Assembly: GCA_001829155.1 (NCBI GenBank)
Contig: MIAO01000011.1
Span: 2,723 to 66,722, forward strand
Direction: 5' to 3'
Length of the DNA stretch: 64,000 nucleotides
From: Spirochaetes bacterium GWB1_36_13
GTDB lineage: Bacteria > Spirochaetota > GWB1-36-13
The translations under genes were made by a program, and so were the position numbers. Below, piece by piece: positions 7,932-56,266 of this stretch (its first letter is position 1; each line of letters starts with the position of its first letter). The notes under the pieces were generated by a model. That model made no database searches. It saw only the letters and a program-made list of their open reading frames with translations, and was not told where the DNA came from.

Positions 7932-7997
7932 TTAAAACTAAAGTATAATGCTTTTTTCACAGTTTTCAAACCGGATTAAAAAAAGATAAAAAAATTA
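7932..7997 (+). promoter_or_regulatory. Two copies (one with an extra A, one with A-to-T) of the conserved 12-mer TTAAACTAAAGT upstream of the esterase gene. The same motif precedes the three tandem lipase genes.
   Basis: tttaaaactaaagtataat at 7931-7949 and ttaaactatagt at 7986-7997. The latter is 91 nt upstream of the ATG at 8088. Confidence 0.5.
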
Positions 7998-8087
7998 AAC
8001 TATAGTACTATGGATATATCAATCAAAAACCCGTATTATTAATTATAGGTATGATAAAAAATTAAAAATTTTAAAGGGGATAGCAAA

Positions 8088-10637
8088 ATGAAAAGAATGA
8101 GAATCTTAGCAGTGCTTCTGATCGCAGTTTTCGGACTGATTCAGTGCGGTAAACAAGGAAGCCCGGACAACACTCTTGCTTCGAGTGATTCAAGAGCGAC
8201 TATTACACAAGTTTCAAGCTTTGGAACAAACCCAGGAAGTCTGGCGATGTATAAATACGCTCCAGCAGGAATTACTGCAGCGGCTCCGCTGGTTGTAGCT
8301 CTTCACGGATGTACTCAGACAGCAAGCGAGTATGCAAACAATACAGACTGGAACAGTCTGGCTGACAAATACAAATTCTATGTTGTCTTTGCTGAAACAA
8401 ACAGCTCCAACAATTCAAGCAAATGTTTTAACTGGTTTGAATCGGGAGATATCGCCAGAGGAGGAGGAGAAGCGCTCTCTATCAAACAAATGGTTGATAA
8501 AATGAAAGCCGATTACTCTATCGACGCATCCAGAGTTTTCGTAACCGGTCTTTCTGCTGGTGGTTTTATGACCGTCGCTATGGCTGCGGCTTATCCTGAT
8601 GTTTTTGCAGGCGCTGCTGTTATGGCAGGCGGACCTTATAAATGTGCTACCAGCATGACAGCGGCTTTCAGCTGTATGTCTCCTGGTGTTGATAAAACTC
8701 CAGCGCAATGGGGAGATTTGGCAAGAAGCGGATATTCAGGATATTCCGGCTCTTATCCTTTGATCAGTATCTGGTATGGTACGACTGACGGTACAGTAAA
8801 ACCTTTAAACTCTACTGAACTGGTTGATCAGTGGACCAATGTCCATGGAATCGATCAGACAGAAGATTTTACTGAGAGTGTAGCGGGATCTTCTCATAAA
8901 GTCTATAAAAATGCAAATGGGGATGCATTGGTAGAAATCTGGGCAATCGCAAGCATGGGACACGCTATCACAGTTGACCCGGGAACAGGCGAAACTCAGG
9001 GCGGCGGAACAGGAAGCTACTCTATTGATAAAAACATCTATTCATCTTACTGGGCAGCAAAATTCTGGGGTCTGGACAACAGCGACAAAGAAGCTCCAGT
9101 TGTCAATGTAACTTCTCCAGCAAACGGCGCAACTATCACAGCAGGCTCTACTACTCTGGCAGCAAGCGCTTCTGACAATGCAGGCGTTGTAAAAGTTGAG
9201 TTTTATGTTGACGGAGTATTGAAATCAACTGATACTTCAGCTCCTTATGAAGCGACTCTTGACCTGACCACAATCGTCAATGGAAGCCACAGTGTTAAAG
9301 CAATTGCTTATGACGCAGCAGGAAATACAGCAACAGACAACGATACTGCTTTCACAGGCGGTACTTATGTTGATACAGTGGCTCCAGTTTTATCCAACGA
9401 TAAAGCAAGCGGAACTTATCAAATGAGCGTTTCTCCAGTAATTTCTGCCAATGAAGCGGCTACAATCTATTATACAACAGACGGCTCTACTCCAACTGTG
9501 AACTCAGCTTCAGGAGCAGCTCCTCTTACTCTTTCTTTCTCAGCAGACACTACGCTGAAATTTTTTGGAAAAGACCCATCCGGAAATGCTTCTTCAGTAC
9601 AAACTTTCAGCTATGTAGTAGAAATCCTCCCTTATACTGAAACAGCATCCGGAACAGCTACTGAGCACTACAATGCAGGAAGACTGGATGTTAACGCATA
9701 TCTTGCTTACGGACAAGAATACGGATATATGACTGCCTTTATTCTCTATCACCTCAAAGCCGAGTTCGGCGGAACATGGGTTGACGAGCATGACCTTCCA
9801 GGATATACTCCAACTCCAGATACTACTGTCCCAACTGTAAATATTACTGCTCCAACAAACGGCTCTACTGTCAGCGCAAGCGTAACTGTAACTGCAGCAG
9901 CATCCGACAATATTGGAGTCGCAAAAGTTGAGTTTTATGTGGACGGAACCTTAAAAGCAACTGATACTGCATCTCCTTATGAATATGTTCTTGATACTAC
10001 AACATTAACAAACGCTTCTCACAGCATTAAAGCAATCGCTTACGATGCAGCCAATAACACTGCAACAGATGACGATACTTCTGTTACTGTTGATAACACA
10101 CAACAAGGCACAACTACGACTGTTGAGTTTACCAGCAACTCTACTGACGACGGATATGTCAAAGCATCTGCAGACGGTTCAGGAGCAGCGGTCGGAACAT
10201 ACTCTACAATAGCAATCGGAAGAGGAAGCGACGGAAAATTTAACAGAGCTATTCTTTCTTTCGACACTTCAAGTCTCCCAGACAGCGCTACGATCGTAAG
10301 AGCATACATTGTAGTCACTGCAAGCTCAGTATCAGGCACTCCATGGGCAAATGGAAACAGCATGGTCATTGACCTTAAAACAGGAAACTTCGGATCAGCT
10401 TCTACTACTGAAACAACAGACTGGGCATCTGCAGCTACTGCTTCTCAAGCAGGAAGCATTGACGCTTTCACAAGCGGAACTAAACAGTCTTCTGATCTTT
10501 CAGCAGCGGGACTTTCTGCAATCAGCAAAACAGGCAAAACTCAGGCAAAATTAAGATTCCTGACTAATCAAACAACTACAGCTTACATCTTTATCACTCA
10601 AGGTACAGGCGCAAAACTCGTAGTTGAATATCAATAA
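8088..10637 (+). CDS. Secreted lipoprotein. It has an N-terminal PHB-depolymerase/esterase-family alpha/beta hydrolase domain, two tandem Ig-like domains and a C-terminal domain of unknown function.
   Basis: Signal peptide plus lipobox (LIQCGK). Esterase motifs ALHGCTQTA..FYVVFAETN..GLSAGGFM (GxSxG). Two ~80-aa repeats (VVKVEFYVDGVLKSTDTSAPYEATLDLTTIVNGSHSVKAIAYDAAGNTATD and VAKVEFYVDGTLKATDTASPYEYVLDTTTLTNASHSIKAIAYDAANNTATD). Confidence 0.7.
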   Translation: MKRMRILAVLLIAVFGLIQCGKQGSPDNTLASSDSRATITQVSSFGTNPGSLAMYKYAPAGITAAAPLVVALHGCTQTASEYANNTDWNSLADKYKFYVVFAETNSSNNSSKCFNWFESGDIARGGGEALSIKQMVDKMKADYSIDASRVFVTGLSAGGFMTVAMAAAYPDVFAGAAVMAGGPYKCATSMTAAFSCMSPGVDKTPAQWGDLARSGYSGYSGSYPLISIWYGTTDGTVKPLNSTELVDQWTNVHGIDQTEDFTESVAGSSHKVYKNANGDALVEIWAIASMGHAITVDPGTGETQGGGTGSYSIDKNIYSSYWAAKFWGLDNSDKEAPVVNVTSPANGATITAGSTTLAASASDNAGVVKVEFYVDGVLKSTDTSAPYEATLDLTTIVNGSHSVKAIAYDAAGNTATDNDTAFTGGTYVDTVAPVLSNDKASGTYQMSVSPVISANEAATIYYTTDGSTPTVNSASGAAPLTLSFSADTTLKFFGKDPSGNASSVQTFSYVVEILPYTETASGTATEHYNAGRLDVNAYLAYGQEYGYMTAFILYHLKAEFGGTWVDEHDLPGYTPTPDTTVPTVNITAPTNGSTVSASVTVTAAASDNIGVAKVEFYVDGTLKATDTASPYEYVLDTTTLTNASHSIKAIAYDAANNTATDDDTSVTVDNTQQGTTTTVEFTSNSTDDGYVKASADGSGAAVGTYSTIAIGRGSDGKFNRAILSFDTSSLPDSATIVRAYIVVTASSVSGTPWANGNSMVIDLKTGNFGSASTTETTDWASAATASQAGSIDAFTSGTKQSSDLSAAGLSAISKTGKTQAKLRFLTNQTTTAYIFITQGTGAKLVVEYQ

Positions 10638-10653
10638 GAAATTAAAAATCTCA

Positions 10654-10686
10654 AACCGGAGGAAGTTCTCCTCCTCCGGTTTTTCT
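10654..10686 (+). terminator. Rho-independent terminator after the esterase gene
   Basis: Perfect 10-bp stem AACCGGAGGA / TCCTCCGGTT with an 8-nt loop, followed by TTTTC. Confidence 0.75.
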
Positions 10687-10744
10687 TATCACTCTTCTCA
10701 AAACTCATTCACCCTGCTCTTTTATATAAAGTCTAAAAACTAAC

Positions 10745-10948
10745 ATTCAGGCTGTCGATTGTTATTTAATTAACACGGACACCGAGCGGAGCCGAGGTGT
10801 CACTTCGACTCCGCTCAGTGACCATACTGCTTTGATTCATAGAAAAACCCTATGAAAGATTGTATCAGAAAATACAATTACCTTTTCTGATAAACTTACA
10901 AATATCAATGATAATAAGTCTTAATTTTCAATAATCGACAGCCTGAAT
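10745..10948. mobile_element. MITE-like element of ~205 bp with 22/19-bp terminal inverted repeats and internal hairpins
   Basis: Left TIR attcaggctgtcgattgttatt (10745-10766) and right TIR aataatcgacagcctgaat (10930-10948) are reverse complements over 16 bp. The interior holds a 16-bp stem GAGCGGAGCCGAGGTG / CACTTCGACTCCGCTC (10784-10817) and a second stem tatcagaaaa / ttttctgata (10863-10892). No coding capacity. Confidence 0.55.
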
Positions 10949-11018
10949 ATAAAAAAACTCCTGAAAACCAATCTCTTGTGTCAGTGCCGAGTAGTAAAAT
11001 GAGAGAAAAAAATAAAAT

Positions 11019-11456
11019 TCAAGGCGCTAAGAGAGTAAAAGGCCAAAAAGAAATATTTCTTAGAATCCAGAATAAAATCACAATCACAAAAAATATCCAG
11101 ACCGCTTTTCCTGAAAAATGGATTTCTGGTTTTTGAGTATTTCTGAAATAATAATAGAGGAAGCGGAAAAAGGAAAACAAAAGAAACGGGGTCAGCAAAA
11201 CAGTCAGAATATTAAAGGAAAAAGCTTTCAGAATTTCCAAATTGGCAAGGGAATGAAGCGCTCTACCCGTACCGCATCCCGGGCAGTAAAGACGGGTAAA
11301 ATGATAAAAAGGACAGGGCGGATAAAAAACGGATCGCCCCGGAGTTTGATTTCTGAGAAGATAAATAAAAAAAAGAAAGAGCAGGATGAATAACAATCCG
11401 ATGCTCATTCTCACTGTTTTACTCTGATAGATTTTTTCCTGAATTTTTTTATACAT
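11019..11456 (-). CDS. Small membrane protein with a CPxC...CPGCGxxRA motif (DUF2752-like)
   Basis: 145 aa with the sequence PPCPFYHFTRLYCPGCGTGRALHS, then hydrophobic helices. Confidence 0.4.
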   Translation of the reverse strand: MYKKIQEKIYQSKTVRMSIGLLFILLFLFFIYLLRNQTPGRSVFYPPCPFYHFTRLYCPGCGTGRALHSLANLEILKAFSFNILTVLLTPFLLFSFFRFLYYYFRNTQKPEIHFSGKAVWIFFVIVILFWILRNISFWPFTLLAP

Positions 11457-11871
11457 TCATCTGGGATTTGATTAAATAATCATGAAGTTCTTTCATAAAG
11501 CCAAGTCCTAAAAAAAGAGCGGCAATATAGATAACCAGAATAACCAATCCTGAAATAAAAGAAACCCAGCACCATGTCTTTGCTTTTTTAGAAGCTTCTA
11601 AAGCTCCTGCACTATCTCCCAATGAAATTTTTGTACTGACTTGTGCGGCAAAAACAATCGCGGGAATCCCAAAAGGCAGACAGCAAAAAAGAGTGACTAA
11701 AATCGACTGAACCAGATAAGTTGGAATCAAGTGCGGATTGGTCATTTTCTGAGTATTTTCCTGTTGAATCATAGGCTGGAAAGTGATTCCCCCTTCACCC
11801 AGTTTTTGACCGCATTTCAGGCAATAAACTGCTGATTTGGCATTAGTCGCGCCGCATTTTGGACAATTCAT
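11449..11871 (-). CDS. Zinc-ribbon plus CD225/dispanin-family membrane protein. The start is probably at MNCPKCG rather than the upstream Met.
   Basis: N-terminal CPKCG..CLKCG zinc ribbon. C-terminal LFCCLPFGIPAIVFAAQV, typical of the CD225/interferon-induced TM family. Confidence 0.5.
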   Translation of the reverse strand: MNCPKCGATNAKSAVYCLKCGQKLGEGGITFQPMIQQENTQKMTNPHLIPTYLVQSILVTLFCCLPFGIPAIVFAAQVSTKISLGDSAGALEASKKAKTWCWVSFISGLVILVIYIAALFLGLGFMKELHDYLIKSQMNV

Positions 11872-11887
11872 AATAACTCCTTGATTT

Positions 11888-13585
11888 TTATTCTTTCGGT
11901 AAAGTAAAAATAAAACGGGCACCCCCGTTTTCTCCATTCTCTACCCAGATTTTTCCCCTGTGTCTTTCTATAATTTTCTTGCACATGGCAAGACCGATTC
12001 CGTTTCCTTCATATTCTTCCCGTGTATGGAGCCTTTGAAAAACAATAAAAATACGGTCAAAATATTCTTTTTGAATTCCAATTCCATTGTCTTGTACTGT
12101 AATTTGATATTCAGATTCAGTTTCCGATGAAAAAATATGAACTACAGGATCAATGTCTTTTCTCCTGTATTTTAAGGCATTCTCAATCAGATTTTGAAAA
12201 AGCTGAATCATCTGGCTGGAATCAGCTAATACTACCGGAAGAGATTCTAATTTCAAGAAAGCTTGATTTTCCTCAATTTTTATGCGTAAATTATCTGTAG
12301 CTTTTTCAAAAACACTCTTTAAATCCGTCTGCTGGAAATCACTTCCATGAGTCTCTATCCGTGAAAGACGGAGCAATGCATTAATAAAATCTTCCATTCT
12401 ATGCGCCCCGTCCACCGCATATTGAATATATTCATTCATATCTTCGTCCTGCTGGTAATGGCTTTCTATTTTTCTTTTGATTAAATCCAAAAAACTGCTA
12501 ATCATCCGGAGCGGTTCGCGCAGGTCATGGGAAGCCACATAGGCAAACTGTTTGAGTTCTTCATTTGAATTTTTCAGTTTAGAAAGTATTTCTTGGAATT
12601 CCATCTGCAATTTTTTTCTTTCGCTGATATCTCTGATAAGTCCGACAGTGCCGAGAAGCTGATTTTCCTTATTGCTTTGAAAATACTCTCCTGCCGCGCT
12701 GATTTCTATCCAGATTGTTTCTTTTTCTTCATTCTTTTCAATCTTGATCTTATTGTCTTCTTCGGTTTCAAGGTAATCTCCGGATGAAAAAACCTCTACC
12801 CATTGAAGACCGGAGTCTTTATTTTTTTTTAATATATTTTTATTTTTGACTGTCTCAGGATTCAAACGGATTTCCAGATTTTTCGTCATTCTTTTCCCGG
12901 TTCTTCTTTCGTCAAAAAGTTTCGGCGCTTTTTCATCGCCTGTTTCAATTCCTTTAAACCCCGGCAAAACCATTTCCCGGCTCACATTGGGAGCGTCTTT
13001 CTCGTGCAGAAGAACACTGAAATGTTTTCCGATCAGATCTTCCGGCTCATAACCGAAGTTTTTAATCGAATCGCTTACAAACAAAAAATAACCCTCATTG
13101 TCGATCCGGTAAACCACATCGGGAACAGACTGGATCAGTTTTTCATATTTTTCCTCTGATTCTTCCAAAAGGAACCGGATCCTTTTGTTCTCAACCCTTT
13201 CTCTTACTTCTTCAATACTGCGCTTAATAGTCAGGGGAAGAATGTCCAGATTGTTTTTATGGATAAACTGTGCGGCTCCAGCTTCAAGGGCTATGAGAAT
13301 AGTTTTATTGTCTTCGATATCGGATATATAAATAAAAGGCGCATTGGGAACTATTTTCTTTGCAATATCAAGGGCGCACTTTCCTTCCTCATGAGAAAGA
13401 CCATAATCCGCTACAATAACATCAAAGCGGATGTGTCTTAAAGCGGAAGTGAAATCTTCGATATTTCTCACCCCCCCGATTTCAAAATCCAGACCGCTAG
13501 TTTCTAATTTTTCCTTTATTTTTCTGATCGTTGTTTCATTCTTTTCAAAACAAAGGACAATAATATTGGATTCTAATGAAGACAT
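11888..13585 (-). CDS. Hybrid signalling protein: N-terminal response-regulator receiver, then PAS, HisKA and HATPase_c (sensor histidine kinase)
   Basis: REC-like N-terminus (DVIVADYGL). H-box ASHDLREPLRMISSFLDL. ATPase G-boxes DNGIGIQ and GNGIGLAMCKKII. Confidence 0.85.
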   Translation of the reverse strand: MSSLESNIIVLCFEKNETTIRKIKEKLETSGLDFEIGGVRNIEDFTSALRHIRFDVIVADYGLSHEEGKCALDIAKKIVPNAPFIYISDIEDNKTILIALEAGAAQFIHKNNLDILPLTIKRSIEEVRERVENKRIRFLLEESEEKYEKLIQSVPDVVYRIDNEGYFLFVSDSIKNFGYEPEDLIGKHFSVLLHEKDAPNVSREMVLPGFKGIETGDEKAPKLFDERRTGKRMTKNLEIRLNPETVKNKNILKKNKDSGLQWVEVFSSGDYLETEEDNKIKIEKNEEKETIWIEISAAGEYFQSNKENQLLGTVGLIRDISERKKLQMEFQEILSKLKNSNEELKQFAYVASHDLREPLRMISSFLDLIKRKIESHYQQDEDMNEYIQYAVDGAHRMEDFINALLRLSRIETHGSDFQQTDLKSVFEKATDNLRIKIEENQAFLKLESLPVVLADSSQMIQLFQNLIENALKYRRKDIDPVVHIFSSETESEYQITVQDNGIGIQKEYFDRIFIVFQRLHTREEYEGNGIGLAMCKKIIERHRGKIWVENGENGGARFIFTLPKE

Positions 13586-13697
13586 AATTAAGCCTCATAA
13601 TAATTTAATTAAAAATAAAATCATAGAATAATTAAACTACTTATTGCCAAAAAATCAAGAAAAATTTATAAACTTATTTTATGGTGCAAATAAATTA

Positions 13698-13725
13698 GCC
13701 GGCGATTCGAATCGCCAGCTCTGTC
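13698..13725 (-). terminator. Perfect 16-bp palindrome GGCGATTCGAATCGCC downstream of the minus-strand OMP gene
   Basis: The palindrome is seen directly. It is followed on the minus strand by an A/T-rich stretch. Confidence 0.4.
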
Positions 13726-13754
13726 TTATATATAAAACTTATTTAATTCGACTC

Positions 13755-14564: not shown

Positions 14565-14852
14565 TTTTTACTCCTTAAAATAATTGTATAAAGTGTATTC
14601 AATTACTCAACTGAATATAACTTAGGTTAAAAAATTATCAAAAAAAGCGGAAAAAGGAAATAGAACCTCAGGTTCTATTTTAAGATTCAATTGATTATGA
14701 ATGTTAAATTTTTAAATATTTTTTTAAATATTTTTTCTGATAACTTATTTTTGTTTTGTCATAAAACCTATATTATTTTTAATTTGCAATATCTTTATTT
14801 AAGTTTATTTCATATTTTTCAAAGCTAAAATATTTCTAATTGAGGTTTTATC

Positions 14853-21117: not shown

Positions 21118-21795
21118 TTATTTCTTGTAGTTTGAATGTTTTTTTAGTTTGAATAATTCAACGCCATAATAAGGACTAAGTTCGCCTGCAGTATTTCGCG
21201 AAGCACATTTATGAATTAATTTTTGTATTTGAGAAGGAGTTCTAAGTCCTTTATCAGAATTTAAAACTTGTTCGACAGCCAGGATTTTAGCTTTTCGATC
21301 TTTTTTCAGACGGTTAAAGTTAAGATTAAGAATTTCATTTAATTCTTTATCCCATGCCGGGTCTTTCGAAAAAATGGAGCCGTCATAATCATTATAGCCG
21401 ATATAATCAGAAACTGAAAAATTTGACGGATTATATTTAATATCAGAGTCTTTTTTGCGGGTATCACAATGCTGATTTTTTTCAGGAGCTCCTTTATTGC
21501 CTGAACAGCAAAGTAAAAGATTATCGTAATCCAATTGATTTTCTGGATAGTTTGATTGAGAAAAAAAATGTTCAATTTTTGATTTATTGATATCAATTCG
21601 GTTCATGCAATAAGCACAGAGAAAACCCTGTTCAGACGCCAGTTGTTTTCTAAGATTATCTTTATCTTTGAAAGACTCAAGAAGTTTACTTGTCTTAACC
21701 AGGTCTTCTTTAACTTGTTTCTTGTATTGAATTAAGCTCATAAGAGGCGGTAACTTTTTAAATTCAATCATTTTCTTTGTCCTCATAGAGAACAA
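21118..21795 (-). CDS. ptuB: HNH endonuclease, PtuB-like (Septu-type defence system nuclease)
   Basis: 225 aa. HNH/zinc-finger motif CAYC..(16)..EHFFSQS..DYDNLLLCCSGN..HCD. Overlaps the upstream ATPase gene by 32 nt. AT-rich. Confidence 0.65.
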   Translation of the reverse strand: MFSMRTKKMIEFKKLPPLMSLIQYKKQVKEDLVKTSKLLESFKDKDNLRKQLASEQGFLCAYCMNRIDINKSKIEHFFSQSNYPENQLDYDNLLLCCSGNKGAPEKNQHCDTRKKDSDIKYNPSNFSVSDYIGYNDYDGSIFSKDPAWDKELNEILNLNFNRLKKDRKAKILAVEQVLNSDKGLRTPSQIQKLIHKCASRNTAGELSPYYGVELFKLKKHSNYKK

Positions 21796-23032
21796 TCAGA
21801 GTCTCTGCTCTGAGGATTTCAGGGACGGGACCATAAGAAGATTTAAACTCTTTAATTTTTAATTTTGCATCACTGTAATTTTTATTCTCAATGGAAAAAA
21901 ATATTTCTTTTAATAATTTTTCCACTTCTTCATTAAGAGGAGAAGTCTGCATAATTTCTTCCAGTATATCATTTGAACTAAGACCTTTCGCCTGATAATT
22001 GTTATTGCAATATATTTCATCGTTTTCCTGAAAGAGTAAGTAAAGCGATTCTCCCATAATTTCTGTAATAATTTGAGGAGAATGGGTTGTTAAAATAAAT
22101 TGAAGATTAGGAAATGTTTTAGAAAGATTTCTAATAATTGTTTTTTGCCATTGAGGATGAAGGTGTAATTCGATTTCATCGATTAAAACAATTCCATTAC
22201 CCTGTAATGGCTCTTCTTTTTCTGGATTTGCTATGGCTAAACGCCGGGCTATATCTCCCGCCATGGCTAATAAACTTTTCTCGCCTACCGAAAGCTGGTC
22301 GATCTGATAGAATTTTTGATTTTTCTTAATCTGCATTTGGAGAGGATTTCTTTTCACTGTAATGTCATCAAATCCAGAAATAAGTTTTATCGCTTTTCTA
22401 ACAGATTTTAGTTGAATATCTTTCTGATAGGGTATTTTTTTTTCAACAGCATTTCGGAACAGCTCGTTTTCAATATCTTCTCTATTTCTGAACCATTCAA
22501 AAAAACTTCGGAATGTAATACCTGAGTTTAGGGCTTCGTCATAAGCATTTAATAAAGAAAATTCATGTTTTTTTCTAATTCTTAGAGGAATATCTTTTAC
22601 AGCCCGGTCAACATTATAATGTACAAACAAAGGCACATTAGCACTTTGAGGTTTATCCGTCATTGTTTTTCGATAAATATTCGCTAATTGACTGATTTGA
22701 GTAAGTTCTGATTTTTCTTCTGTTATAATCCCCGGTCTGTTTTTGACTAAAATACCAGAAAAATGTTGATCTGATTCCAAAGAAAAATCAGCCGTAATTT
22801 TGCAGAAGTGTTTATCGTTCTGTATATCAATAATTCCGATTGGTTTTCCTGTGCCGTTATTTTGTCTCATTCGCGCGATTATCCAAGATAAATGAACTGA
22901 AATCCCGTCTAAAATAGTACTTTTCCCAGAACCGTTGATTCCGCAGATGACATTTAAATTTTTATGAAAAGTAATGGATAAATTTTTGATTCCTCTGAAA
23001 TTATTTATGATCAATTTTTCTAATCGCATCAA
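21764..23032 (-). CDS. ptuA: AAA15/ABC-type (SMC-like) ATPase, PtuA-like (Septu-type defence system ATPase)
   Basis: 422 aa. Walker A GINGSGKST. Signature-like LSVGEKSLLAMAGDIARRL. Walker B IVLIDEIELHLHPQWQ. H-loop ILTTHSP. Confidence 0.65.
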   Translation of the reverse strand: MMRLEKLIINNFRGIKNLSITFHKNLNVICGINGSGKSTILDGISVHLSWIIARMRQNNGTGKPIGIIDIQNDKHFCKITADFSLESDQHFSGILVKNRPGIITEEKSELTQISQLANIYRKTMTDKPQSANVPLFVHYNVDRAVKDIPLRIRKKHEFSLLNAYDEALNSGITFRSFFEWFRNREDIENELFRNAVEKKIPYQKDIQLKSVRKAIKLISGFDDITVKRNPLQMQIKKNQKFYQIDQLSVGEKSLLAMAGDIARRLAIANPEKEEPLQGNGIVLIDEIELHLHPQWQKTIIRNLSKTFPNLQFILTTHSPQIITEIMGESLYLLFQENDEIYCNNNYQAKGLSSNDILEEIMQTSPLNEEVEKLLKEIFFSIENKNYSDAKLKIKEFKSSYGPVPEILRAETLIVLYEDKEND

Positions 23033-45548: not shown

Positions 45549-45585
45549 AATCAGTTAAAAACACAACCAAGGAGACAATTTTAAA

Positions 45586-46884: not shown

Positions 46885-46898
46885 TCCAGGAAAATTGA

Positions 46899-50585: not shown

Positions 50586-50689
50586 GGGGATGAGAAAACA
50601 GTACCGACGGTTTGACAGAATGAATAGAAAATGTTATATTTAGAAAAAAGGCATTGAAAGAAATAAGGTATAGAAAGGGGAGTAGAAAA

Positions 50690-50921
50690 ATGACGGCTTT
50701 AATCAATATTCCAGATATTGTTGGCATTAAATGAGGGGAAAGATGAATTGATCGAAAAAATAAAGAAATTGACAGCAATGGAGTATTTCAGAGAAGGGAA
50801 GCTTTCTCTTGGAAAGGTTAAAACAGATATGATTATTGTTGCAGATTCTTCTCCTCTCATCACTCTAGCGATCACGGAGGGGCAGATGAATGCTAAAATG
50901 AAAATAAAATTAAAAACCTGA
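50690..50921 (+). pseudogene. Decayed type II toxin-antitoxin remnant. A frameshifted UPF0175-like antitoxin is fused to the first ~25 codons of a DUF3368/PIN-like toxin.
   Basis: MTALINIPDIVGIK-stop. In another frame, DELIEKIKKLTAMEYFREGKLSLGKV is fused to MIIVADSSPLITLAITEG..stop. Confidence 0.5.
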
Positions 50922-51006
50922 ATAGAAGGAATTTTGAAATTAATTCCTTTTTTACCGTCAGGTAGTGTAAATAAATAGTTATTGAAAAACAATGTTATAA
51001 TTTCTA

Positions 51007-51063
51007 AAACTCCCCTTGTCTTCCTCTGGGAGATAAGGGGCTGGGGGTTTGTGGGCAAAAAAT
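51007..51063. repeat. Solo copy of the 57-bp G-rich repeat (56/57 identical to 32407-32463)
   Basis: aaactccccttgtcttcctctgggagataaggggctgggggtttgtgggcaaaaaat. Confidence 0.85.
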
Positions 51064-51127
51064 TTTCAGGTTTTTTATTTGAAAAATGAGTTTTTCAGGG
51101 TCGACTCAGTAATCTTATAAAAAACCG

Positions 51128-51469
51128 TCAAGCTTTTTTAACAAACTCTGATTTCAACTGAATCGAGCCAAATCCTTCTATTCTACAGTCGATATCATGA
51201 TCGCCTTCTATTAATCGGATATTTTTAACTTTTGTGCCGACTTTAACAACTGAGGAGGAGCCTTTCACTTTTAAGTCTTTAATGACAGTTATGGAATCAC
51301 CATTATTCAGTACATTGCCAAAAGCATCTTTCCAGACACGAGTTTCTTCGTTCATCACTGCCGCTTCGTCTTTGCTCCATTCATGAGAGCATTCTGGGCA
51401 GACATATTGGCTCCCATCGTCATAAGTTAATTCTGAATTGCATTGAGGGCAGTTGGGTAGTGTGCTCAT
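51128..51469 (-). CDS. phnA: PhnA/YjdC-family zinc-ribbon protein
   Basis: 113 aa. N-terminal CPQC..CPEC zinc ribbon. C-terminal PhnA-like beta domain. Confidence 0.75.
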
Positions 51470-51765
51470 GATCGGTTAAACTCCTATTGTACAAAAATTA
51501 ATATAAAAATAGAGTGAATAATCTACAGAAAGATTACTAGCAAGACAAATATTTATTCAAGTAATTAAAAAATACTTTCAGAAACTTAAAAAAACAAGAA
51601 ATAGAATTGATCAATTTTTTAATTGATTCAGTTTGGATTCGGTAAATCCGGTGATTTTTGAAATCAGAGAAGGGTCAGGCTTAATCTGAATCATTTGATA
51701 AAAATTGCAAGCCAGCCCCTTTCATTGAGTAAATTTAAAAGACTTAAATTTGAGAGGAAAATTCA

Positions 51766-53292
51766 ATGATACTGATTCTGGACTTTGGATCGCAATACAC
51801 TCAGCTGATTGCCAAAAGAATCCGCAAAATGAAGGTTTACTGCGAGATTCACCCCTATTCTGCCGATATTCAGAAAATCGCTGAAAATAACAGGATTGAA
51901 GGCTTGATCTTATCGGGCGGTCCCGCAAGCGTTTATGACTCGGATTCATTTAAAATAGAGAAAAAAACACTGGATGAACTGAATATTCCGATTCTTGGAA
52001 TTTGTTATGGAATGCAGCTCCTTTCATACCTTTATGAGGGAAAAATCACTCCTTCGGATTCAAGGGAATACGGGTTTACTGAAATCAAGCTTGATTCTTC
52101 ATCGCTTCTTTTTGAGGGGCTGGAAGAAAAGCAGGTTGTCTGGATGAGCCATGGCGACAAAGTTGTTGAATTTCCGAAAGATTTTATCAAAGCGGCTGAA
52201 AGCAAAAATGCTTTGGCTTCTATTCAAAATAAAAAAAAACATATTTACGCGGTTCAGTTTCACCCTGAAGTGGTGCATACCAAAAACGGCGGAAAAATGC
52301 TGGAAAATTTTGTCTTCAAAATCTGCAAGTGCATTGCAGACTGGGAGATGGGGTCTTTTATCGACAATACGGTTCATGCAGTGCGCAATCAGGTGAAAGA
52401 CAAAAAAGTGGTTTTAGGGCTTTCGGGAGGGGTGGATTCTTCTGTTCTGGCAGTGCTGCTTCATAAAGCTCTCGGGAAAAACCTGCTTTGTGTTTTTGTC
52501 AACAACGGGGTTTTGAGAAAAAACGAGGCTTTGAAAGTGCAGGAGACTTTTACAAAAAACTATGATATTAATTTTAAATACATTGATGCATCAAAAGAAT
52601 TCCTTCAAAAATTAAAAGGAATTGATTCTCCTGAACAAAAAAGAAAAATTATCGGCGAGTATTTTCTGGAAGTTTTTTCAAAAACAACACAAGGGTTTGA
52701 TTTTCTAGCCCAGGGAACACTTTATCCTGATGTGATTGAGTCTGTGAATGTCAAGGGACCTTCTGATACCATCAAAACCCATCACAACCGGGTGGGCGGG
52801 GTTTTAGAATTGATTAATCAGGGAAAAGTGATCGAGCCTTTTAAAGAGCTTTTTAAGGATGAGGTCAGGGAAATCGGCCGTGAGCTGGGAGTGCCGGATG
52901 AGATTGTCAATCGTCAGCCTTTTCCAGGACCGGGTCTTGCGATCCGTGTTTTGGGAGATGTGACAGAGGAAAAACTCAATACCCTTCGGGAAGCAGATGC
53001 GATTATTATTGAAGAAATTAAAAATGCGGGGCTTTACAACCAGATATGGCAGGCTTTCGGGGTTTTTCTGCCTGTTCAGTCGGTAGGCGTGATGGGAGAT
53101 AAAAGGACTTATGAAAATGTGATCGCTCTTCGGATTGTGGAAAGCGTGGACGGAATGACGGCGGATTGGGTGAAGATGCCTTACGATGTCTTGAATAAGA
53201 TTTCTTCCAGAATCATCAACGAAGTCAAAGGAATCAACCGCGTGGTTTATGATATCAGCAGTAAACCGCCTGCAACAATCGAGTGGGAATAA
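51766..53292 (+). CDS. guaA: GMP synthase (glutamine-hydrolysing)
   Basis: 508 aa. GATase Cys in GICYGMQL. PP-loop SGGVDSSV. C-terminal dimerisation domain. Confidence 0.95.
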   Translation: MILILDFGSQYTQLIAKRIRKMKVYCEIHPYSADIQKIAENNRIEGLILSGGPASVYDSDSFKIEKKTLDELNIPILGICYGMQLLSYLYEGKITPSDSREYGFTEIKLDSSSLLFEGLEEKQVVWMSHGDKVVEFPKDFIKAAESKNALASIQNKKKHIYAVQFHPEVVHTKNGGKMLENFVFKICKCIADWEMGSFIDNTVHAVRNQVKDKKVVLGLSGGVDSSVLAVLLHKALGKNLLCVFVNNGVLRKNEALKVQETFTKNYDINFKYIDASKEFLQKLKGIDSPEQKRKIIGEYFLEVFSKTTQGFDFLAQGTLYPDVIESVNVKGPSDTIKTHHNRVGGVLELINQGKVIEPFKELFKDEVREIGRELGVPDEIVNRQPFPGPGLAIRVLGDVTEEKLNTLREADAIIIEEIKNAGLYNQIWQAFGVFLPVQSVGVMGDKRTYENVIALRIVESVDGMTADWVKMPYDVLNKISSRIINEVKGINRVVYDISSKPPATIEWE

Positions 53293-53302
53293 AAAATAAA
53301 AT

Positions 53303-53345
53303 CCTGTTGAAGATTAATTTGCTTCAACAGGAAATTTGATTTTTA
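53303..53345 (+). terminator. Rho-independent terminator after guaA
   Basis: 10-bp stem CCTGTTGAAG / CTTCAACAGG, followed by AAATTTGATTTTT. Confidence 0.7.
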
Positions 53346-53535
53346 GAAATCCCCCTATAGTCTGAATAAATCTTCTTGTTGTTTTTATGAAATTTCTGAC
53401 TGAAATTTAATTATTTAGAAAAAATAGCTGGAATGCAAGCTTTTTGCTACATCAAAAAATGACAAAATGTCAAAAATTAAAAGTTTTAATATGTATGAAA
53501 AAAGGTACACTTGAAATATAATTAAGTGTAAAAAT

Positions 53536-53547
53536 TAAACTAAAGTA
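53536..53547 (+). promoter_or_regulatory. Conserved 12-mer TTAAACTAAAGT, 83 nt upstream of lipase paralog 1
   Basis: Exact 12-mer shared with 54960-54971, 56255-56266 and, with one change, 7986-7997. It is followed by TATAAT. Confidence 0.55.
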
Positions 53548-53629
53548 TAATAAATGAATTATTTTTAACAATATTTTAAATTGGTATGAAGATTGATATC
53601 TCTTTTAAAGAATTATAAGGAGGATTAAA

Positions 53630-54643
53630 ATGAAAAAACTAGTGATGGCGGTCTTGTTGATGGGAGCGCTTGTATTTACTTCATGTGCGAAAAGCGGGGA
53701 GCTTGATTCAAATGTATCAGCAGGCGACAGCAAGGGAACATGTTATGATCCCGGAGTCAATGCGTTTGGGTCACACTTCCAAAGCTATTTGAACAGCACA
53801 GGAAACTCAGACTTGACAGGATTTGGGGGATCTACGACTAAAACGGGAGATTGCGCTATTGTAAATCAGCCGGTAGTCTTTATTCACGGAAACGGAGACA
53901 ATGCCTCCGGATCAGCATTGCCGATGGGCGGATGGGTCACTTCCAGAAATTATTTTAAAACCAAAGGTTATAAACCATCAGAGCTTTATGCTGTAAATTA
54001 TGGAAAATCAGGAGCTATGAATGCGGCTTTAAACTATCACGCGGCGCCTAATATCAGTAAAATTTACCGGTTTATCGTAGCCGTTAAAAACTACTCAGGA
54101 CAAGCGAAAGTAGATGTCATTGCTCACTCGCTTGGGGTTACATCAGTCAGAGCAGCAGTCAAAGGCGGAACTTATAAAGAATATACAGGAACTTCAGTCT
54201 ATCTTGGAGCTTCTATCAATGGAATCGTGGATACTTTTGTAGGAATTTCCGGAGCAAACAGAGGACTTAATTCTTGCGGATCATGGCCTCTCAATAACTG
54301 GACGCCAACCTGCGGACCTACAGGACTTTCTATTAATAACCCGTTTTTAGTGGCAGTCAACGGCGGAAAAGCTTCTATGTATCTTTCTTGGGGAACTTGG
54401 AAACCAAATACTCTTAAAATGAAAGTAGGAAGCTATACTTACAGTATTATGTCTTATGCGGATGAATTGGGATGTATGCCTGCAATGCCTACTTACTGTT
54501 ATGTTTATGCAAGACATACTTCTTATCTGGACGGTCAAAACGGAGGAAAAGTTTACTATTCTTATCCATACGGTCACATGGGAAATAAAGAGCAGACAGC
54601 ATACTATCAGTATAAAATGGTTAAATATCACACAACTAATTAA
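53630..54643 (+). CDS. Secreted class-2 (LipA-like) lipase/esterase lipoprotein, paralog 1
   Basis: Lipobox VFTSCAK. PVVFIHGNGDN oxyanion region. Nucleophile motif VDVIAHSLGVTSV (cf. Bacillus LipA IVAHSMGGANT). Asp in YADELGCMP and His in YPYGHMGN. Confidence 0.75.
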   Translation: MKKLVMAVLLMGALVFTSCAKSGELDSNVSAGDSKGTCYDPGVNAFGSHFQSYLNSTGNSDLTGFGGSTTKTGDCAIVNQPVVFIHGNGDNASGSALPMGGWVTSRNYFKTKGYKPSELYAVNYGKSGAMNAALNYHAAPNISKIYRFIVAVKNYSGQAKVDVIAHSLGVTSVRAAVKGGTYKEYTGTSVYLGASINGIVDTFVGISGANRGLNSCGSWPLNNWTPTCGPTGLSINNPFLVAVNGGKASMYLSWGTWKPNTLKMKVGSYTYSIMSYADELGCMPAMPTYCYVYARHTSYLDGQNGGKVYYSYPYGHMGNKEQTAYYQYKMVKYHTTN

Positions 54644-54681
54644 TTCAGATTTCTCGTTGCTTCACATTTTTTCCTGAATGT

Positions 54682-54745
54682 CGGAGAGGTTTTTGTAAAG
54701 CAGGCAAAACCCTCTCCGGCGTTATTCTTTTCTGATCTTTTTTTT
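54682..54745 (+). terminator. Terminator after lipase 1
   Basis: CGGAGAGGTTT..AAACCCTCTCCG stem, then a T-rich tract. Confidence 0.6.
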
Positions 54746-54959
54746 CAAATTTTTTGTCTTGTCTGAGTAGGGGAAAACACAATGTTTATTATTATCACAC
54801 TTCGAAAATGACCAGCCGAACGGGTTTTATTTCTTGCTTTTAAATTCATCTTTTATTTCACTCTAAGGTCGTTTTAGAAAAAAATGTCAATAATGATTTT
54901 ACTTTTGTCATATCAAAGTAGGAAAAAAAATACATAAAAAAATTAGGGAAAAATGAAAA

Positions 54960-54971
54960 TTAAACTAAAGT
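54960..54971 (+). promoter_or_regulatory. Conserved 12-mer TTAAACTAAAGT, 89 nt upstream of lipase paralog 2
   Basis: Exact match. Confidence 0.55.
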
Positions 54972-55059
54972 TTATTATACAAAGGTTTTAAGAAAAAAAT
55001 AAAATTGGCATAAAAATTGAAATATTATTTTTGAAATATATAAAATGTGGAGGATTAAA

Positions 55060-56043
55060 ATGAAAAAACTACTTTTAGCGATGTTGGTCATCGCAGCGTT
55101 TGGGTTCACATCATGTGCAAAAAGCGGGGAGCCGGATTCAACTGTATCAGCAGGAGACACTAAGGGAGTATGTTATGATCCCGGGGTCAATGCATTTGGA
55201 TCAAACTTCCAAAGCTATTTGAACAGCACAGGAAACTCAGACTTGACAGGATTTGGCGGATCTACTTCTAAAACAGGTGATTGTGCCATTGTTAAACAAC
55301 CCGTTGTCTTTATTCACGGAAACGGAGACAATGCATCCGGATCAGCAATGCCGATGGGCGGATGGAAAACATCCAGAACTTATTTTATGAGCAAAGGTTA
55401 TAAACCATCAGAGCTTTATGCTGTAAATTATGGAAAACCAGGAGCTACGAATGCGGCTTTAAACTATCACTCAGCGCCTAATATCAGCAAGATCTACCGG
55501 TTTATCGTAGCCGTTAAAAACTACTCAGGACAAGCGAAAGTAGATGTGATTGCACACTCATTGGGAGTTACATCAGTCAGAGCAGCAGTCAAAGGCGGAA
55601 CTTATAAAGAATATACAGGAACTTCAGTTTATCTTGGAGCTGCTATCAATGGAATTATCGATACTTTCGTAGGAATTTCCGGAGCAAACAGAGGACTTAA
55701 TTCTTGCGGTGTTTGGCCTCTCGGAAGCTATACTCCAACCTGCGGACCTACAGGACTCGCTATTTCTAACCCATTTTTAGTTACTCTTCAGGGCGGAAGC
55801 AGATATCCATCTATGGCAAAAGTAGGAAGCTATACTTATACAATCTATTCTTATGCGGATGAACTGGCATGTATGCCTGTAATGCCTACTTACTGTTATG
55901 TTTACTACTATCACACTTCAAAAATGACCAGTCAAAACGGAGAAAAAGTTTATTACTCTTATCCATACGGTCACATGGGAAATAAAGAGCAAACACCAGC
56001 AGTCCAATACAACATGGTTGTCAATCACAATACCAACGGGTAA
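55060..56043 (+). CDS. Secreted class-2 lipase/esterase lipoprotein, paralog 2. Start at MKKLLLAML with a GGAGG RBS.
   Basis: Same motifs as paralog 1 (FTSCAK, PVVFIHGNGDN, VDVIAHSLGV, YADELACMP, YPYGHMGN). A central loop is shorter. Confidence 0.75.
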   Translation: MKKLLLAMLVIAAFGFTSCAKSGEPDSTVSAGDTKGVCYDPGVNAFGSNFQSYLNSTGNSDLTGFGGSTSKTGDCAIVKQPVVFIHGNGDNASGSAMPMGGWKTSRTYFMSKGYKPSELYAVNYGKPGATNAALNYHSAPNISKIYRFIVAVKNYSGQAKVDVIAHSLGVTSVRAAVKGGTYKEYTGTSVYLGAAINGIIDTFVGISGANRGLNSCGVWPLGSYTPTCGPTGLAISNPFLVTLQGGSRYPSMAKVGSYTYTIYSYADELACMPVMPTYCYVYYYHTSKMTSQNGEKVYYSYPYGHMGNKEQTPAVQYNMVVNHNTNG

Positions 56044-56053
56044 TTTTCTTTAT

Positions 56054-56085
56054 CCTCTCTGTCTTTCTGACAGAGAGGATTTTTA
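56054..56085 (+). terminator. Terminator after lipase 2
   Basis: CCTCTCTGTC-tttct-GACAGAGAGG, then ATTTTT. Confidence 0.7.
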
Positions 56086-56254
56086 AAAGCAATAATCAAA
56101 ATTATTTAATCAAATGAAAAGCTTTTTTTTATAAGAAGTTTGGGATTATCTTAAAAAATTTAAACTTTAGTTTACATTCCCTTTCTTTATGGCATTTTCT
56201 TTGTCAATAATGATAGGTAAAATACTACACTAAATGGTTTTTTAATTGTTTTTA

Positions 56255-56266
56255 TTAAACTAAAGT
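56255..56266 (+). promoter_or_regulatory. Conserved 12-mer TTAAACTAAAGT, 85 nt upstream of lipase paralog 3 (a variant TTAAACTTTAGT lies at 56159-56170)
   Basis: Exact match. Confidence 0.55.

What the first reader, a model, noticed from the sequence alone, without database searches (positions are those of the whole stretch)
7932..56266. Conserved 12-mer TTAAACTAAAGT at a fixed distance (83-91 nt) upstream of four secreted lipolytic-enzyme genes
Exact copies lie at 53536-53547, 54960-54971 and 56255-56266, one upstream of each lipase. A one-mismatch copy lies at 7986-7997, with a second variant at 7932-7944, upstream of the PHB-depolymerase-like esterase at 8088. In each case the site is 83-91 nt from the start codon and is followed by an A/T-rich -10-like TATAAT / TATTA. 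An exact 12-mer four times in 64 kb at a constant offset from functionally related genes argues for a shared operator or promoter, in other words a lipase/esterase regulon.
Basis: seen in the sequence. Interest (0 to 1): 0.6.

Follow-up and report, generated by a model that had tools for sequence, protein, structure and literature searches.

The report
Shared regulator site before esterase/lipase genes
The repeated 12-mer is real: it is most of a 16-bp palindromic docking site for a still-unidentified transcription factor, sitting directly against the promoters of secreted PHB-depolymerase and lipase genes in an uncultured spirochaete and three relatives. This is a genuine regulatory motif of an ordinary kind.

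Summary
TTAAACTAAAGT (≤1 mismatch) occurs 6 times in the window against 0.85 expected, and all six copies lie in the four upstream regions. One inverted copy at 56160-56175 had been missed.

The 12-mer is the left part of a 16-bp "7-2-7" palindrome, TTAWACT-NN-AGTWTAA.

The window comes from the MAG Spirochaetes bacterium GWB1_36_13. The "esterase" belongs to the extracellular PHB-depolymerase family. The same palindrome lies upstream of:
- a second depolymerase paralog in the same genome (two copies);
- depolymerase orthologs in three other spirochaete lineages, perfect in two of them.

Each promoter-proximal site is centred 85-93 nt before the ATG, except one ortholog at 130.5 nt. It directly abuts a -35 box (TTGACA-16-TATTAT in two orthologs), which puts its centre near -43. 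In about 1.1 Mb of fetched DNA, every ≤1-mismatch hit but one (inside a coding repeat) lies upstream of such a gene.

Best reading: a binding site for a dimeric regulator, probably with a LuxR/NarL-type HTH, working from a class-II-like position. The regulator was not found.

The lipases also keep a sigma-54-type promoter that is conserved across the lipase clade. Two other lipase paralogs in this genome lack the palindrome.

Verdict: real, conserved, and a known kind of element.

The parts
7995..8010 (.). Promoter-proximal palindrome upstream of PHB-depolymerase gene PhaZa: TTAAACT-AT-AGTACTA. Two mismatches to TTAWACTNNAGTWTAA. Centre 85.5 nt before the ATG.
7933..7948 (.). Distal palindrome in the PhaZa / VTT-gene divergent intergenic region: TAAAACT-AA-AGTATAA. 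One mismatch. It lies 62 bp upstream of the proximal site and overlaps a minus-strand promoter-like TTGAAA-16-TATACT.
8011..8039 (+). Predicted sigma-70-type promoter of PhaZa, TGGATA-17-TATTAT. Its -35 box directly abuts the palindrome.
   Evidence: aligns with TTGACA-16-TATTAT of the orthologs in L099 and L104
8088..10637 (+). PhaZa: 849-aa secreted (lipobox) Esterase_PHB + Big_7 protein of the extracellular short-chain PHA/PHB-depolymerase family.
53535..53550 (.). lip1 palindrome TTAAACT-AA-AGTATAA. Perfect match to the consensus. Centre 87.5 nt before the ATG.
53582..53596 (+). lip1 sigma-54-like element TGGTAT-gaaga-TTGA. GG lies 41 bp downstream of the palindrome centre. The -12 element is degenerate.
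53630..54643 (+). lip1: Lipase_2 (PF01674) lipoprotein, 337 aa.
54960..54975 (.). lip2 palindrome TTAAACT-AA-AGTTTAT. One mismatch. Centre 92.5 nt before the ATG at 55060.
54976..55005 (+). lip2 sigma-70-like promoter candidate TATACA-18-TAAAAT, abutting the palindrome.
55006..55020 (+). lip2 sigma-54-like element TGGCAT-aaaaa-TTGA.
55060..56043 (+). lip2: Lipase_2 lipoprotein, 327 aa. The RBS-supported start is 55060, not 55045.
56160..56175 (.). lip3 distal palindrome TTAAACT-TT-AGTTTAC. One mismatch.
56255..56270 (.). lip3 proximal palindrome TTAAACT-AA-AGTATTA. One mismatch. Centre 88.5 nt before the ATG at 56351.
56302..56316 (+). lip3 sigma-54-like element TGGTCT-tgaaa-ATGC.
56351..57373 (+). 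lip3: Lipase_2 lipoprotein, 340 aa.
53302..53332 (+). Terminator-like hairpin after guaA (-15.7 kcal/mol, z = -5.2).
54680..54720 (+). Terminator-like hairpin after lip1 (-24.4 kcal/mol, z = -4.6). It supports lip2 being its own transcription unit.
56052..56080 (+). Terminator-like hairpin plus T-run after lip2 (-21 kcal/mol, z = -5.7). It supports lip3 being its own transcription unit.

Best explanation
The 12-mer is the better-conserved part of a 16-bp inverted repeat, TTAWACT-NN-AGTWTAA: two 7-bp half-sites separated by 2 bp. I read it as the binding site of a dimeric helix-turn-helix transcription factor.

**Position.** At each regulated gene the promoter-proximal copy directly abuts the -35 hexamer of a sigma-70-type promoter. 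This puts its centre at about -43 from the predicted start site and 85-93 nt before the ATG. The lock to the -35 box is why the distance looks fixed.

**Proposed action.** From that position the factor most likely contacts RNA polymerase and activates transcription, in a class-II-like manner. In this genome the -35 boxes are poor (TGGATA, TTGTTT, TATACA, TAAATG, CCCGCA), which fits dependence on an activator. Three genes have a second copy 62, 85 or 95 bp upstream (about 6, 8 and 9 helical turns), which would allow cooperative binding.

**Regulon.** The core is the secreted PHB/PHA-depolymerase genes, conserved in four spirochaete lineages. In Spirochaetes bacterium GWB1_36_13 the three tandem lipase genes carry the site as well. 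There it sits upstream of the sigma-54-type promoter that the lipase clade carries.

**Likely family.** The 7-2-7 geometry, the ACT-WW-AGT core and the -43 position point to a LuxR/NarL-type (GerE) HTH protein. The factor itself is not in the window.

**Shown:** the motif, its palindromic symmetry, its exclusivity to these upstream regions, its cross-lineage conservation, and its abutment to -35-like boxes.

**Inferred, with my estimates:**
- binding by a protein: about 0.85;
- activation rather than repression: about 0.55;
- LuxR/NarL family: about 0.4.
For: **Enrichment and exclusivity.**
- At ≤1 mismatch the 12-mer gives 6 hits against 0.85 expected, 0 of 100 shuffles.
- The 16-mer consensus at ≤2 mismatches gives 10 hits against 1.8 expected, 0 of 100 shuffles.
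- In 734 kb of fetched loci plus 374 kb of depolymerase loci from reference genomes, every ≤1-mismatch hit lies upstream of a lipase or depolymerase gene of this clade. The one exception is a coding-repeat hit in L176.

**Palindromy.** Partner half-sites at ≤1 mismatch occur at 5 of about 37 half-sites, against a background probability of 0.005 each.

**Not a duplication relic.**
- The three lipase upstream regions have diverged (53% mean column identity in the four-sequence alignment that also includes the esterase upstream), and the motif is one of only a few short conserved islands in them.
- It occurs twice in the non-homologous PhaZa upstream region.
- It occurs twice upstream of the paralog P0133 on another contig of the same genome.
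- It occurs upstream of orthologs in three other lineages: L099/L109, TTAAACTTTAGTTTAA, perfect; L104, TTATACTAAAGTATAA, perfect; L103, one mismatch.

**Architecture.**
- L099 and L104: [palindrome][TTGACA]-16-[TATTAT], 11 of 12 promoter positions.
- PhaZa: [palindrome][TGGATA]-17-[TATTAT].
- lip2: [palindrome][TATACA]-18-[TAAAAT].
- Centre to ATG is 85.5-92.5 nt for all seven proximal sites with that architecture (L103 is 130.5).

**Family lead.**
- NarL binds inverted heptamers separated by 2 bp ('7-2-7', for example TACCCCTAAAGGGGTA). It activates from sites at -43.5/-44.5 at yeaR, napF and ogt1052 (PMC4549865, PMC9314961).
- The DosR EMSA probe TTGGGGACTAAAGTCCCTAA shares the ACTAAAGT core (PMC5999986).
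- In L104 the depolymerase pair is flanked by two Pkinase-AAA_16-TPR_MalT-GAF-GerE (LuxR HTH) proteins.

**Not an RNA element.** The motif does not fold as RNA (0 kcal/mol), and Rfam finds nothing in the window.
Against: - No transcription factor was identified. No HTH protein lies in the window or within about 10 kb of the sites in this genome.
- A search with the L104 GAF-GerE region found no homolog named from GWB1_36_13.
- Transcription start sites are only predicted. In AT-rich DNA, -10-like hexamers arise easily.
- For lip1 and lip3 the adjacent -35/-10 candidates are poor. A conserved sigma-54-type element lies 40 bp downstream instead, and a LuxR-type activator is not known to drive sigma-54 promoters.
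- In L099 and L104 the core promoter is near-consensus. That fits repression better than activation.
- The left half-site and its A-tract flank are better conserved than the right half. This leaves room for an orientation-dependent reading.
- The closest ortholog with little flank (L102, 62% identity) shows only a half-site within 166 nt.
- L175 (Spirochaeta sp.) has no site.
Confidence: 0.65

Rival explanations
1. Same palindromic protein-binding site, but the factor is a repressor. A TetR-, GntR- or LuxR-type protein would be released by a polymer- or lipid-derived ligand. It would sit against the -35 box and block polymerase or UP-element contacts, and the distal copies would allow repression loops.
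For: - The orthologous promoters in L099 and L104 are near-consensus (TTGACA-16-TATTAT). They would be constitutively strong without a repressor.
- Paired sites lie at near-integral helical turns (62, 85, 95 bp).
- The distal PhaZa site overlaps a minus-strand -10-like TATACT for the divergent VTT gene.
- Own knowledge, not tested here: AAAC-N4-GTTT resembles PsrA-type fatty-acid-responsive TetR operators.
Against: - The site abuts but does not overlap the -35/-10 boxes or the predicted start site.
- In this genome the -35 boxes next to the site are poor, as expected for activator-dependent promoters.
- No TetR or GntR gene lies nearby.
Confidence: 0.2
2. At the lipase genes the palindrome works on the sigma-54 promoter. 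It would be an upstream activator sequence for an enhancer-binding protein, or a site for an architectural or bending protein, centred about 65 bp upstream of the sigma-54 start site.
For: - TTGGCAC-N5-TTGCT is the only block conserved across 11 lipase upstream regions. It is textbook in paralog P0023 (TGGCACgcaaaTTGCT) and in L019, L020 and L023.
- In lip1-3 the GG lies a constant 40-41 bp downstream of the palindrome centre.
- The intervening DNA is A-tract rich.
Against: - The depolymerase genes carrying the same site have no sigma-54-like element; they have sigma-70 boxes abutting the site.
- Lipase genes with the best sigma-54 promoters (P0023, P0002, L018-L029) lack the palindrome.
- -65 is closer than usual for enhancer sites.
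- By inspection there is no match to the IHF consensus WATCAANNNNTTR.
- At the 2-mismatch level, sigma-54 matches in the window are background.
- lip1 and lip2 have GA instead of GC at -12.
Confidence: 0.1
3. The motif is itself a core promoter element. One version is the first reader's: the 12-mer plus the following TATAAT act as an extended -10. The other version treats TTAAAC as a -35 box for an alternative or ECF sigma factor.
For: - The right half reads TATAAT at lip1, the distal PhaZa site and the distal PhaZb site, and TATGAT at the proximal PhaZb site.
- The left half plus its A-tract is more conserved than the right half.
Against: - In 3 of 11 sites the '-10' has T instead of the key A at position 2 (TTTATT, TTTAAT, TTTACA).
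- There is no conserved -35 box 16-18 bp upstream, only an A-tract.
- There is no conserved -10 (CGT-like) 16-17 bp downstream of TTAAAC, as an ECF promoter would need.
- The two-fold symmetry is statistically strong. A sigma factor does not need it.
- One copy (56160-56175) is equally good in both orientations.
Confidence: 0.04
4. The motif is a non-functional relic of the tandem lipase duplication, plus chance matches at the esterase gene.
For: The three lipase genes are tandem paralogs with alignable upstream regions.
Against: - Flanking upstream sequence has diverged while the motif is exact.
- The same palindrome lies upstream of non-homologous depolymerase genes in this genome and in three other lineages, at the same offset in four of the five cases.
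Confidence: 0.01

Closest known systems
NarL/NarP '7-2-7' operators of E. coli (NarL/FixJ family, GerE/LuxR-type HTH)
   Same: - Two 7-bp inverted heptamers separated by exactly 2 bp, 16 bp in all. The engineered high-affinity NarL site TACCCCT-AA-AGGGGTA shares the central CTAAAG (PMC4549865).
- A single 7-2-7 site centred at -43.5/-44.5 is enough for activation at yeaR, napF and ogt1052. That matches the predicted -43 position here.
   Different: - The half-site sequence is TTAWACT, not TACYYMT.
- The organism is an uncultured spirochaete.
- The target genes are secreted hydrolases, not respiratory genes.
- No NarL-type regulator has been linked to these sites.
DosR/DevR box of Mycobacterium tuberculosis, and VraR ACT-Nn-AGT sites. 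The VraR comparison is from own knowledge.
   Same: - A palindrome with an ACT-WW-AGT core. The DosR EMSA probe is TTGGGGACTAAAGTCCCTAA (PMC5999986).
- Same HTH family as NarL.
   Different: - The outer bases are GGG/CCC in DosR and TTAA/TTAA here.
- The DosR box is 20 bp.
- Physiology is unrelated.
LuxR-type 'lux box' and CRP/FNR class II activation. General model, from own knowledge.
   Same: A dimer site abutting or overlapping the -35 box, centred near -41.5 to -42.5. Often found with weak -35 hexamers, as in the GWB1 promoters.
   Different: - Lux boxes are 20 bp and CRP sites are 22 bp.
- The promoters in L099 and L104 have perfect TTGACA boxes, unlike typical class II promoters.
LAL/MalT-like large ATP-binding LuxR regulators and STAND Ser/Thr kinases
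   Same: In L104 the depolymerase genes carrying the palindrome are flanked by Pkinase-AAA_16-TPR_MalT-GAF-GerE proteins. These combine a STAND-type NTPase with a C-terminal LuxR HTH.
   Different: In GWB1_36_13 the equivalent neighbours end in HD_5 or SpoIIE/PP2C domains instead of an HTH. They cannot bind the site themselves.

Membership tests
7-2-7 operator of a NarL/FixJ (LuxR-type HTH, GerE) regulator | Two 7-bp half-sites in inverted orientation, separated by 2 bp | tested here: met
   The consensus TTAWACT-NN-AGTWTAA was derived from 11 distinct sites. Three are perfect, seven have one mismatch and one has two. Partner-half enrichment is shown.
7-2-7 operator of a NarL/FixJ (LuxR-type HTH, GerE) regulator | Bound by a protein with a GerE/LuxR-type HTH domain | not testable with these tools
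   There is only a contextual lead. Two GerE-containing proteins flank the L104 locus. None lies in the window or within ±10 kb in GWB1_36_13. The homolog search was uninformative.
7-2-7 operator of a NarL/FixJ (LuxR-type HTH, GerE) regulator | Activating sites centred near -42 to -45 relative to the transcription start | tested here: inconclusive
   The predicted sigma-70 boxes put the centre at about -43 in L099, L104, PhaZa and lip2. No transcription start site is mapped.
Sigma-54 (RpoN)-dependent promoter, for the lipase genes | -24 GG and -12 GC elements, TGGCAC-N5-TTGC, with fixed spacing | tested here: inconclusive
   The feature is met in paralog P0023 (TGGCACgcaaaTTGCT) and in orthologs L019, L020 and L023. 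For the window genes, lip3 has GG/GC, while lip1 and lip2 have GG/GA. The window-wide count at this stringency is not above chance.
Sigma-54 (RpoN)-dependent promoter, for the lipase genes | The genome encodes RpoN and an enhancer-binding protein | not tested
   The rest of the MAG could not be scanned. The genome is not in the searchable genome collection.
   Three of 11 sites have T at position 2 (TTTATT, TTTAAT, TTTACA). Upstream there is only an A-tract.
Structured RNA or riboswitch leader | Stable conserved fold, or an Rfam match | tested here: not met
   There is no Rfam hit in the window at gathering threshold. The motif region folds at 0 kcal/mol.

The most novel reading that the evidence does not exclude
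The palindrome could mark a lineage-specific 'polyester and lipid scavenging' regulon of uncultured Spirochaetota.
- Its regulator would be the LuxR-HTH output of giant STAND-type Ser/Thr-kinase sensors (Pkinase-AAA_16-TPR-GAF-GerE). Paralogs of these, with HD-GYP-like or PP2C outputs, sit next to the other lipolytic genes.
- In GWB1_36_13 the three lipases would have been recruited by placing this site, and a weak sigma-70 promoter, upstream of the clade's sigma-54 promoter. That would give dual sigma-70/sigma-54 control.
- This would be a first described transcriptional circuit for extracellular PHB depolymerases in spirochaetes.
Probability: 0.2. Interest if true: 0.5.

Novelty: new member of a known kind. 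Interest (0 to 1): 0.33.

Why it matters
Regulation of extracellular PHB/PHA depolymerases and secreted lipases is poorly characterised. For uncultured groundwater and digester Spirochaetota it is unknown. A well-defined operator conserved across lineages gives three things:
- a handle to fish out the regulator, by DNA-affinity capture or DAP-seq with MAG-encoded GerE proteins;
- a way to predict the polymer-degradation regulon from MAGs;
- a possible way to build inducible expression of polyester hydrolases.

Mechanistically it is a standard palindromic operator at a standard position. It would not surprise a specialist.

Tried and rejected
- **Rfam scan of the whole window:** no family matched. 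An RNA element was rejected; the motif also does not fold.
- **Genome-collection scan with the lipase alignment:** no relatives found. The source MAG is not in that collection, so a genome-wide motif scan was impossible.
- **Lipase homologs from metagenomes:** none outside GWB1_36_13 carries the palindrome. They instead revealed the sigma-54 promoter.
- **ECF-type promoter reading (TTAAAC as -35):** there is no conserved element 16-17 nt downstream. Rejected.
- **IHF site reading:** there is no match to WATCAANNNNTTR in either orientation, by inspection. Rejected.
- **Sigma-70 promoter using the motif's TATAAT as -10:** there is no -35 box, and A at position 2 is not conserved. Rejected.
- **Search for a nearby transcription factor:** Pfam scans covered 41 ORFs of the window and neighbouring loci, and the left flank of the contig was also examined. 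Only sensor kinases, an orphan receiver protein and a short cNMP-binding protein turned up. No HTH was found.
- **Homolog search with the L104 GAF-GerE region:** only one relative, from Spirochaetae HGW-6, and none from GWB1_36_13.
- **Built-in terminator scan:** it reported none in 53250-56400, but folding shows strong hairpins after guaA, lip1 and lip2.
- **P0002 upstream region:** it has only a 5-mismatch resemblance to the site, at a different spacing. I treated this as chance or decay.

Full report
**1. The observation**

A search for TTAAACTAAAGT with up to one mismatch gives six matches in the 64-kb window against 0.85 expected, and 0 of 100 dinucleotide-preserving shuffles reach six.
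- Exact copies lie at 53535-53546, 54960-54971 and 56255-56266.
- One-mismatch copies lie at 7933-7944 and 7995-8006.

At two mismatches the count is pure background (15 against 15.4), so the signal sits entirely in the near-exact copies.

All six copies are intergenic. They lie upstream of three tandem Lipase_2 (PF01674) lipoprotein genes (53630, 55060, 56351; 82-90% identical) and of an 849-aa Esterase_PHB + Big_7 gene at 8088. From the end of the 12-mer to the RBS-supported ATG the gap is 83, 88, 84 and 81 nt.

**2. What the motif is**

Lining up the six sites shows that the 12-mer is the left part of a 16-bp inverted repeat with two 7-bp arms separated by 2 bp. The copies at 54960 and 56160 are nearly perfect (TTAAACT-AA-AGTTTAT, TTAAACT-TT-AGTTTAC). 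Related loci (section 4) gave the consensus TTAWACT-NN-AGTWTAA.
- Against this consensus the lip1 site is perfect, four window sites have one mismatch and one has two.
- The window holds 10 matches at ≤2 mismatches against 1.8 expected, 0 of 100 shuffles.
- Of 38 TTAWACT half-sites in the window, five sites have a partner half at ≤1 mismatch. The background probability is 0.005 per half-site.

The motif does not fold as RNA (0 kcal/mol). Rfam finds nothing in the window.

**3. Source and gene content**

Exact-sequence look-ups place the window in the metagenome-assembled genome Spirochaetes bacterium GWB1_36_13. The lipases are OHD14185-87, the esterase is OHD14155, and the contig is 82 kb.

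The "esterase" belongs to the family that sources annotate as extracellular type-1 short-chain-length PHA (PHB) depolymerase. I call it PhaZa.

The genome has two more Lipase_2 paralogs on other contigs (P0002 and P0023) and a second depolymerase paralog (P0133, "PhaZb").

Strong hairpins follow guaA, lip1 and lip2. Each lipase therefore looks like its own transcription unit and needs its own promoter.

**4. Comparative evidence**

The three lipase upstream regions are alignable but diverged. The four-sequence alignment that also includes the esterase upstream has 53% mean column identity, and the motif is the longest invariant block in it, alongside the block I interpret below as a sigma-54 promoter and the RBS.

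The motif is not confined to that duplicated block.
- PhaZb (L098) has two copies upstream: TTAAACTTTGGTATAA and TTAAACTTAAGTATGA. The proximal one is centred 86.5 nt before the ATG.
- The 57%-identical ortholog P0132, from another Spirochaetota MAG (GCA_035405625.1 and JPMR_maxbin.049; GC 0.29-0.32), has a perfect TTAAACTTTAGTTTAA centred 87.5 nt before its ATG.
- Ortholog P0134 (L104, GC 0.45) has a perfect TTATACTAAAGTATAA at 90.5 nt.
- P0197 (L103) has TTATACTAAAGTATAG.

I scanned 734 kb of fetched loci, including about 60 lipase loci from unrelated phyla. I also scanned 374 kb around 79 depolymerase genes of reference genomes. Every ≤1-mismatch hit lies upstream of one of these spirochaete lipase or depolymerase genes, apart from one hit inside a coding repeat. 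This refutes both "common everywhere" and "duplication relic".

Some genes lack the site: lipase paralogs P0002 and P0023, and all lipase orthologs elsewhere. That includes the lipase lying on the same 99-kb contig as the P0132 depolymerase. The conserved core of the regulon is therefore the depolymerase genes. The lipase array of GWB1_36_13 is a lineage-specific addition.

**5. Promoter architecture**

In L099 and L104 the palindrome is followed with no gap by TTGACA, then 16 nt, then TATTAT. That matches 11 of 12 consensus positions. The same columns give:
- TGGATA-17-TATTAT for PhaZa (also found independently by the promoter scan);
- TTGTTT-16/17-TTTTAT/TTTATT for PhaZb;
- TATACA-18-TAAAAT for lip2;
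- weaker boxes for lip1 and lip3.

With the -35 box abutting the site, the palindrome centre falls at about -43. This explains the constant 85-93 nt to the ATG.

Distal copies lie 62 bp (PhaZa), 85 bp (PhaZb) and 95 bp (lip3) upstream of the proximal ones. These are about 5.9, 8.1 and 9.0 helical turns, compatible with same-face cooperative binding. With three cases this is only suggestive.

**6. A second layer at the lipases**

I aligned 11 lipase upstream regions: lip1-3, P0002, P0023 and homologs carried on six further metagenome contigs. The only conserved block reads AAAATTGGCACAnAAATTGCT, about 45-55 nt before the ATG. This is the sigma-54 -24/-12 consensus.
- It is textbook in P0023 (TGGCACgcaaaTTGCT) and in L019, L020 and L023.
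- In lip1-3 it is partly degenerate: TGGTAT..TTGA, TGGCAT..TTGA and TGGTCT..ATGC.
- Within the window alone it is not above chance.

The lipases thus appear to carry a sigma-54-type promoter shared across the lipase clade. In GWB1_36_13 the palindrome sits 40-41 bp upstream of its GG. Which promoter is used, or whether both are, cannot be decided without start-site data.

**7. Which factor?**

No HTH protein is encoded in the window or within about 10 kb of any site in this genome.

The site's geometry is that of NarL-type "7-2-7" operators. NarL binds inverted heptamers separated by 2 bp, for example TACCCCTAAAGGGGTA. It activates from single sites centred at -43.5/-44.5 at yeaR, napF and ogt1052 (PMC4549865, PMC9314961). 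The ACT-WW-AGT core is shared with the DosR box (probe TTGGGGACTAAAGTCCCTAA, PMC5999986).

In L104 the depolymerase pair is flanked on both sides by Pkinase-AAA_16-TPR_MalT-GAF-GerE proteins, which end in a LuxR-type HTH. In GWB1_36_13, proteins of the same architecture neighbour PhaZb and lipase P0023 but end in HD_5 or SpoIIE domains, so they cannot be the binder there. A homolog search with the L104 GAF-GerE part found no GWB1 protein. The LuxR/NarL assignment is therefore a lead and not a result.

**8. Verdict**

Four revisions apply:
- the unit is a 16-bp 7-2-7 palindrome;
- the "-10" is its second half-site;
- the real -35/-10 boxes lie just downstream of it;
- the conserved regulon core is the PHB-depolymerase genes.

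The most likely mechanism is a dimeric HTH regulator bound at about -43 that activates these promoters. I put activation at about 0.55 and repression from the same site at about 0.3. My guess at the family is LuxR/NarL.

This is a new instance of a well-known kind of element. Its main value is as a handle on how uncultured spirochaetes regulate secreted polyester and lipid hydrolases.

Noticed in passing
window 53582-53596, 55006-55020, 56302-56316; L014 ~9951-9969; L019, L020, L021, L023, L029 upstream regions: A sigma-54-type promoter (consensus TTGGCAC-N5-TTGCT) is the only block conserved across 11 upstream regions of this Lipase_2 clade. These come from GWB1_36_13 and from homologs on six further metagenome contigs. 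It suggests these secreted lipases are RpoN-dependent. It is textbook in paralog P0023 and degenerate in lip1 and lip2.
   Followed up: partly
L098 4476-9587 (-), L014 11275-16122 (+), L104 1-1848 (-) and 9154-12904 (-): Giant Pkinase-AAA_16-TPR-GAF proteins with swappable C-terminal outputs (HD_5, SpoIIE/PP2C, GerE/LuxR HTH) sit next to lipase or PHB-depolymerase genes in three separate loci of two organisms.
   Followed up: partly
window 6210-6223; 54885-54897; 56202-56214; ~53468-53480: A second palindrome family is present. A perfect TGTCATTAATGACA lies 15 nt before the ATG of a FabH/KAS-III-like gene (6238). TGTCAATAATGAT lies upstream of lip2 and lip3, and TGACAAAATGTCA upstream of lip1. 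There are only three matches to TGTCA-W4-TGAY in about 170 kb of this genome. This may be a second regulator site linked to fatty acids.
   Followed up: partly
L006/L009/L010 versus L007/L011 (lipase P0009 loci): The same lipase gene, with about 170 bp of identical upstream sequence, sits in two different genomic contexts. That upstream sequence includes two hairpin/palindromes, GTGTTGGcaaaaCCAACAC and AGTGTAGTtttttttACTACACT. In one context an MCP gene lies upstream; in the other an unrelated gene does. This suggests a duplicated or mobile cassette.
   Followed up: no
window 7942-7969 (minus strand): The distal PhaZa palindrome overlaps a minus-strand promoter-like TTGAAA-16-TATACT (10 of 12 positions) facing the divergent VTT/DedA-domain gene (7302-7904). 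One bound factor could therefore affect both genes.
   Followed up: no
window 57556-58821 and 60922-63465; L099 18102-21251: A HEAT_2-repeat protein follows the lipase array, and a hybrid histidine kinase lies 2 kb further on. In the related genome a HEAT_2 protein is directly adjacent to a hybrid histidine kinase, 5.5 kb from the depolymerase gene. This may be a conserved sensor module.
   Followed up: no
window 21764-23032 and 30000-32000: An AAA_15/AAA_21 (AbiEii-like) ATPase gene is present. A markedly low-GC stretch (0.27 against about 0.38) holds a DUF6575 protein. This looks like a small defence or mobile island.
   Followed up: no
window 53250-56400: The built-in terminator scan reported no terminators here. 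Folding nevertheless shows strong hairpins followed by T-rich runs after guaA, lip1 and lip2.
   Followed up: yes
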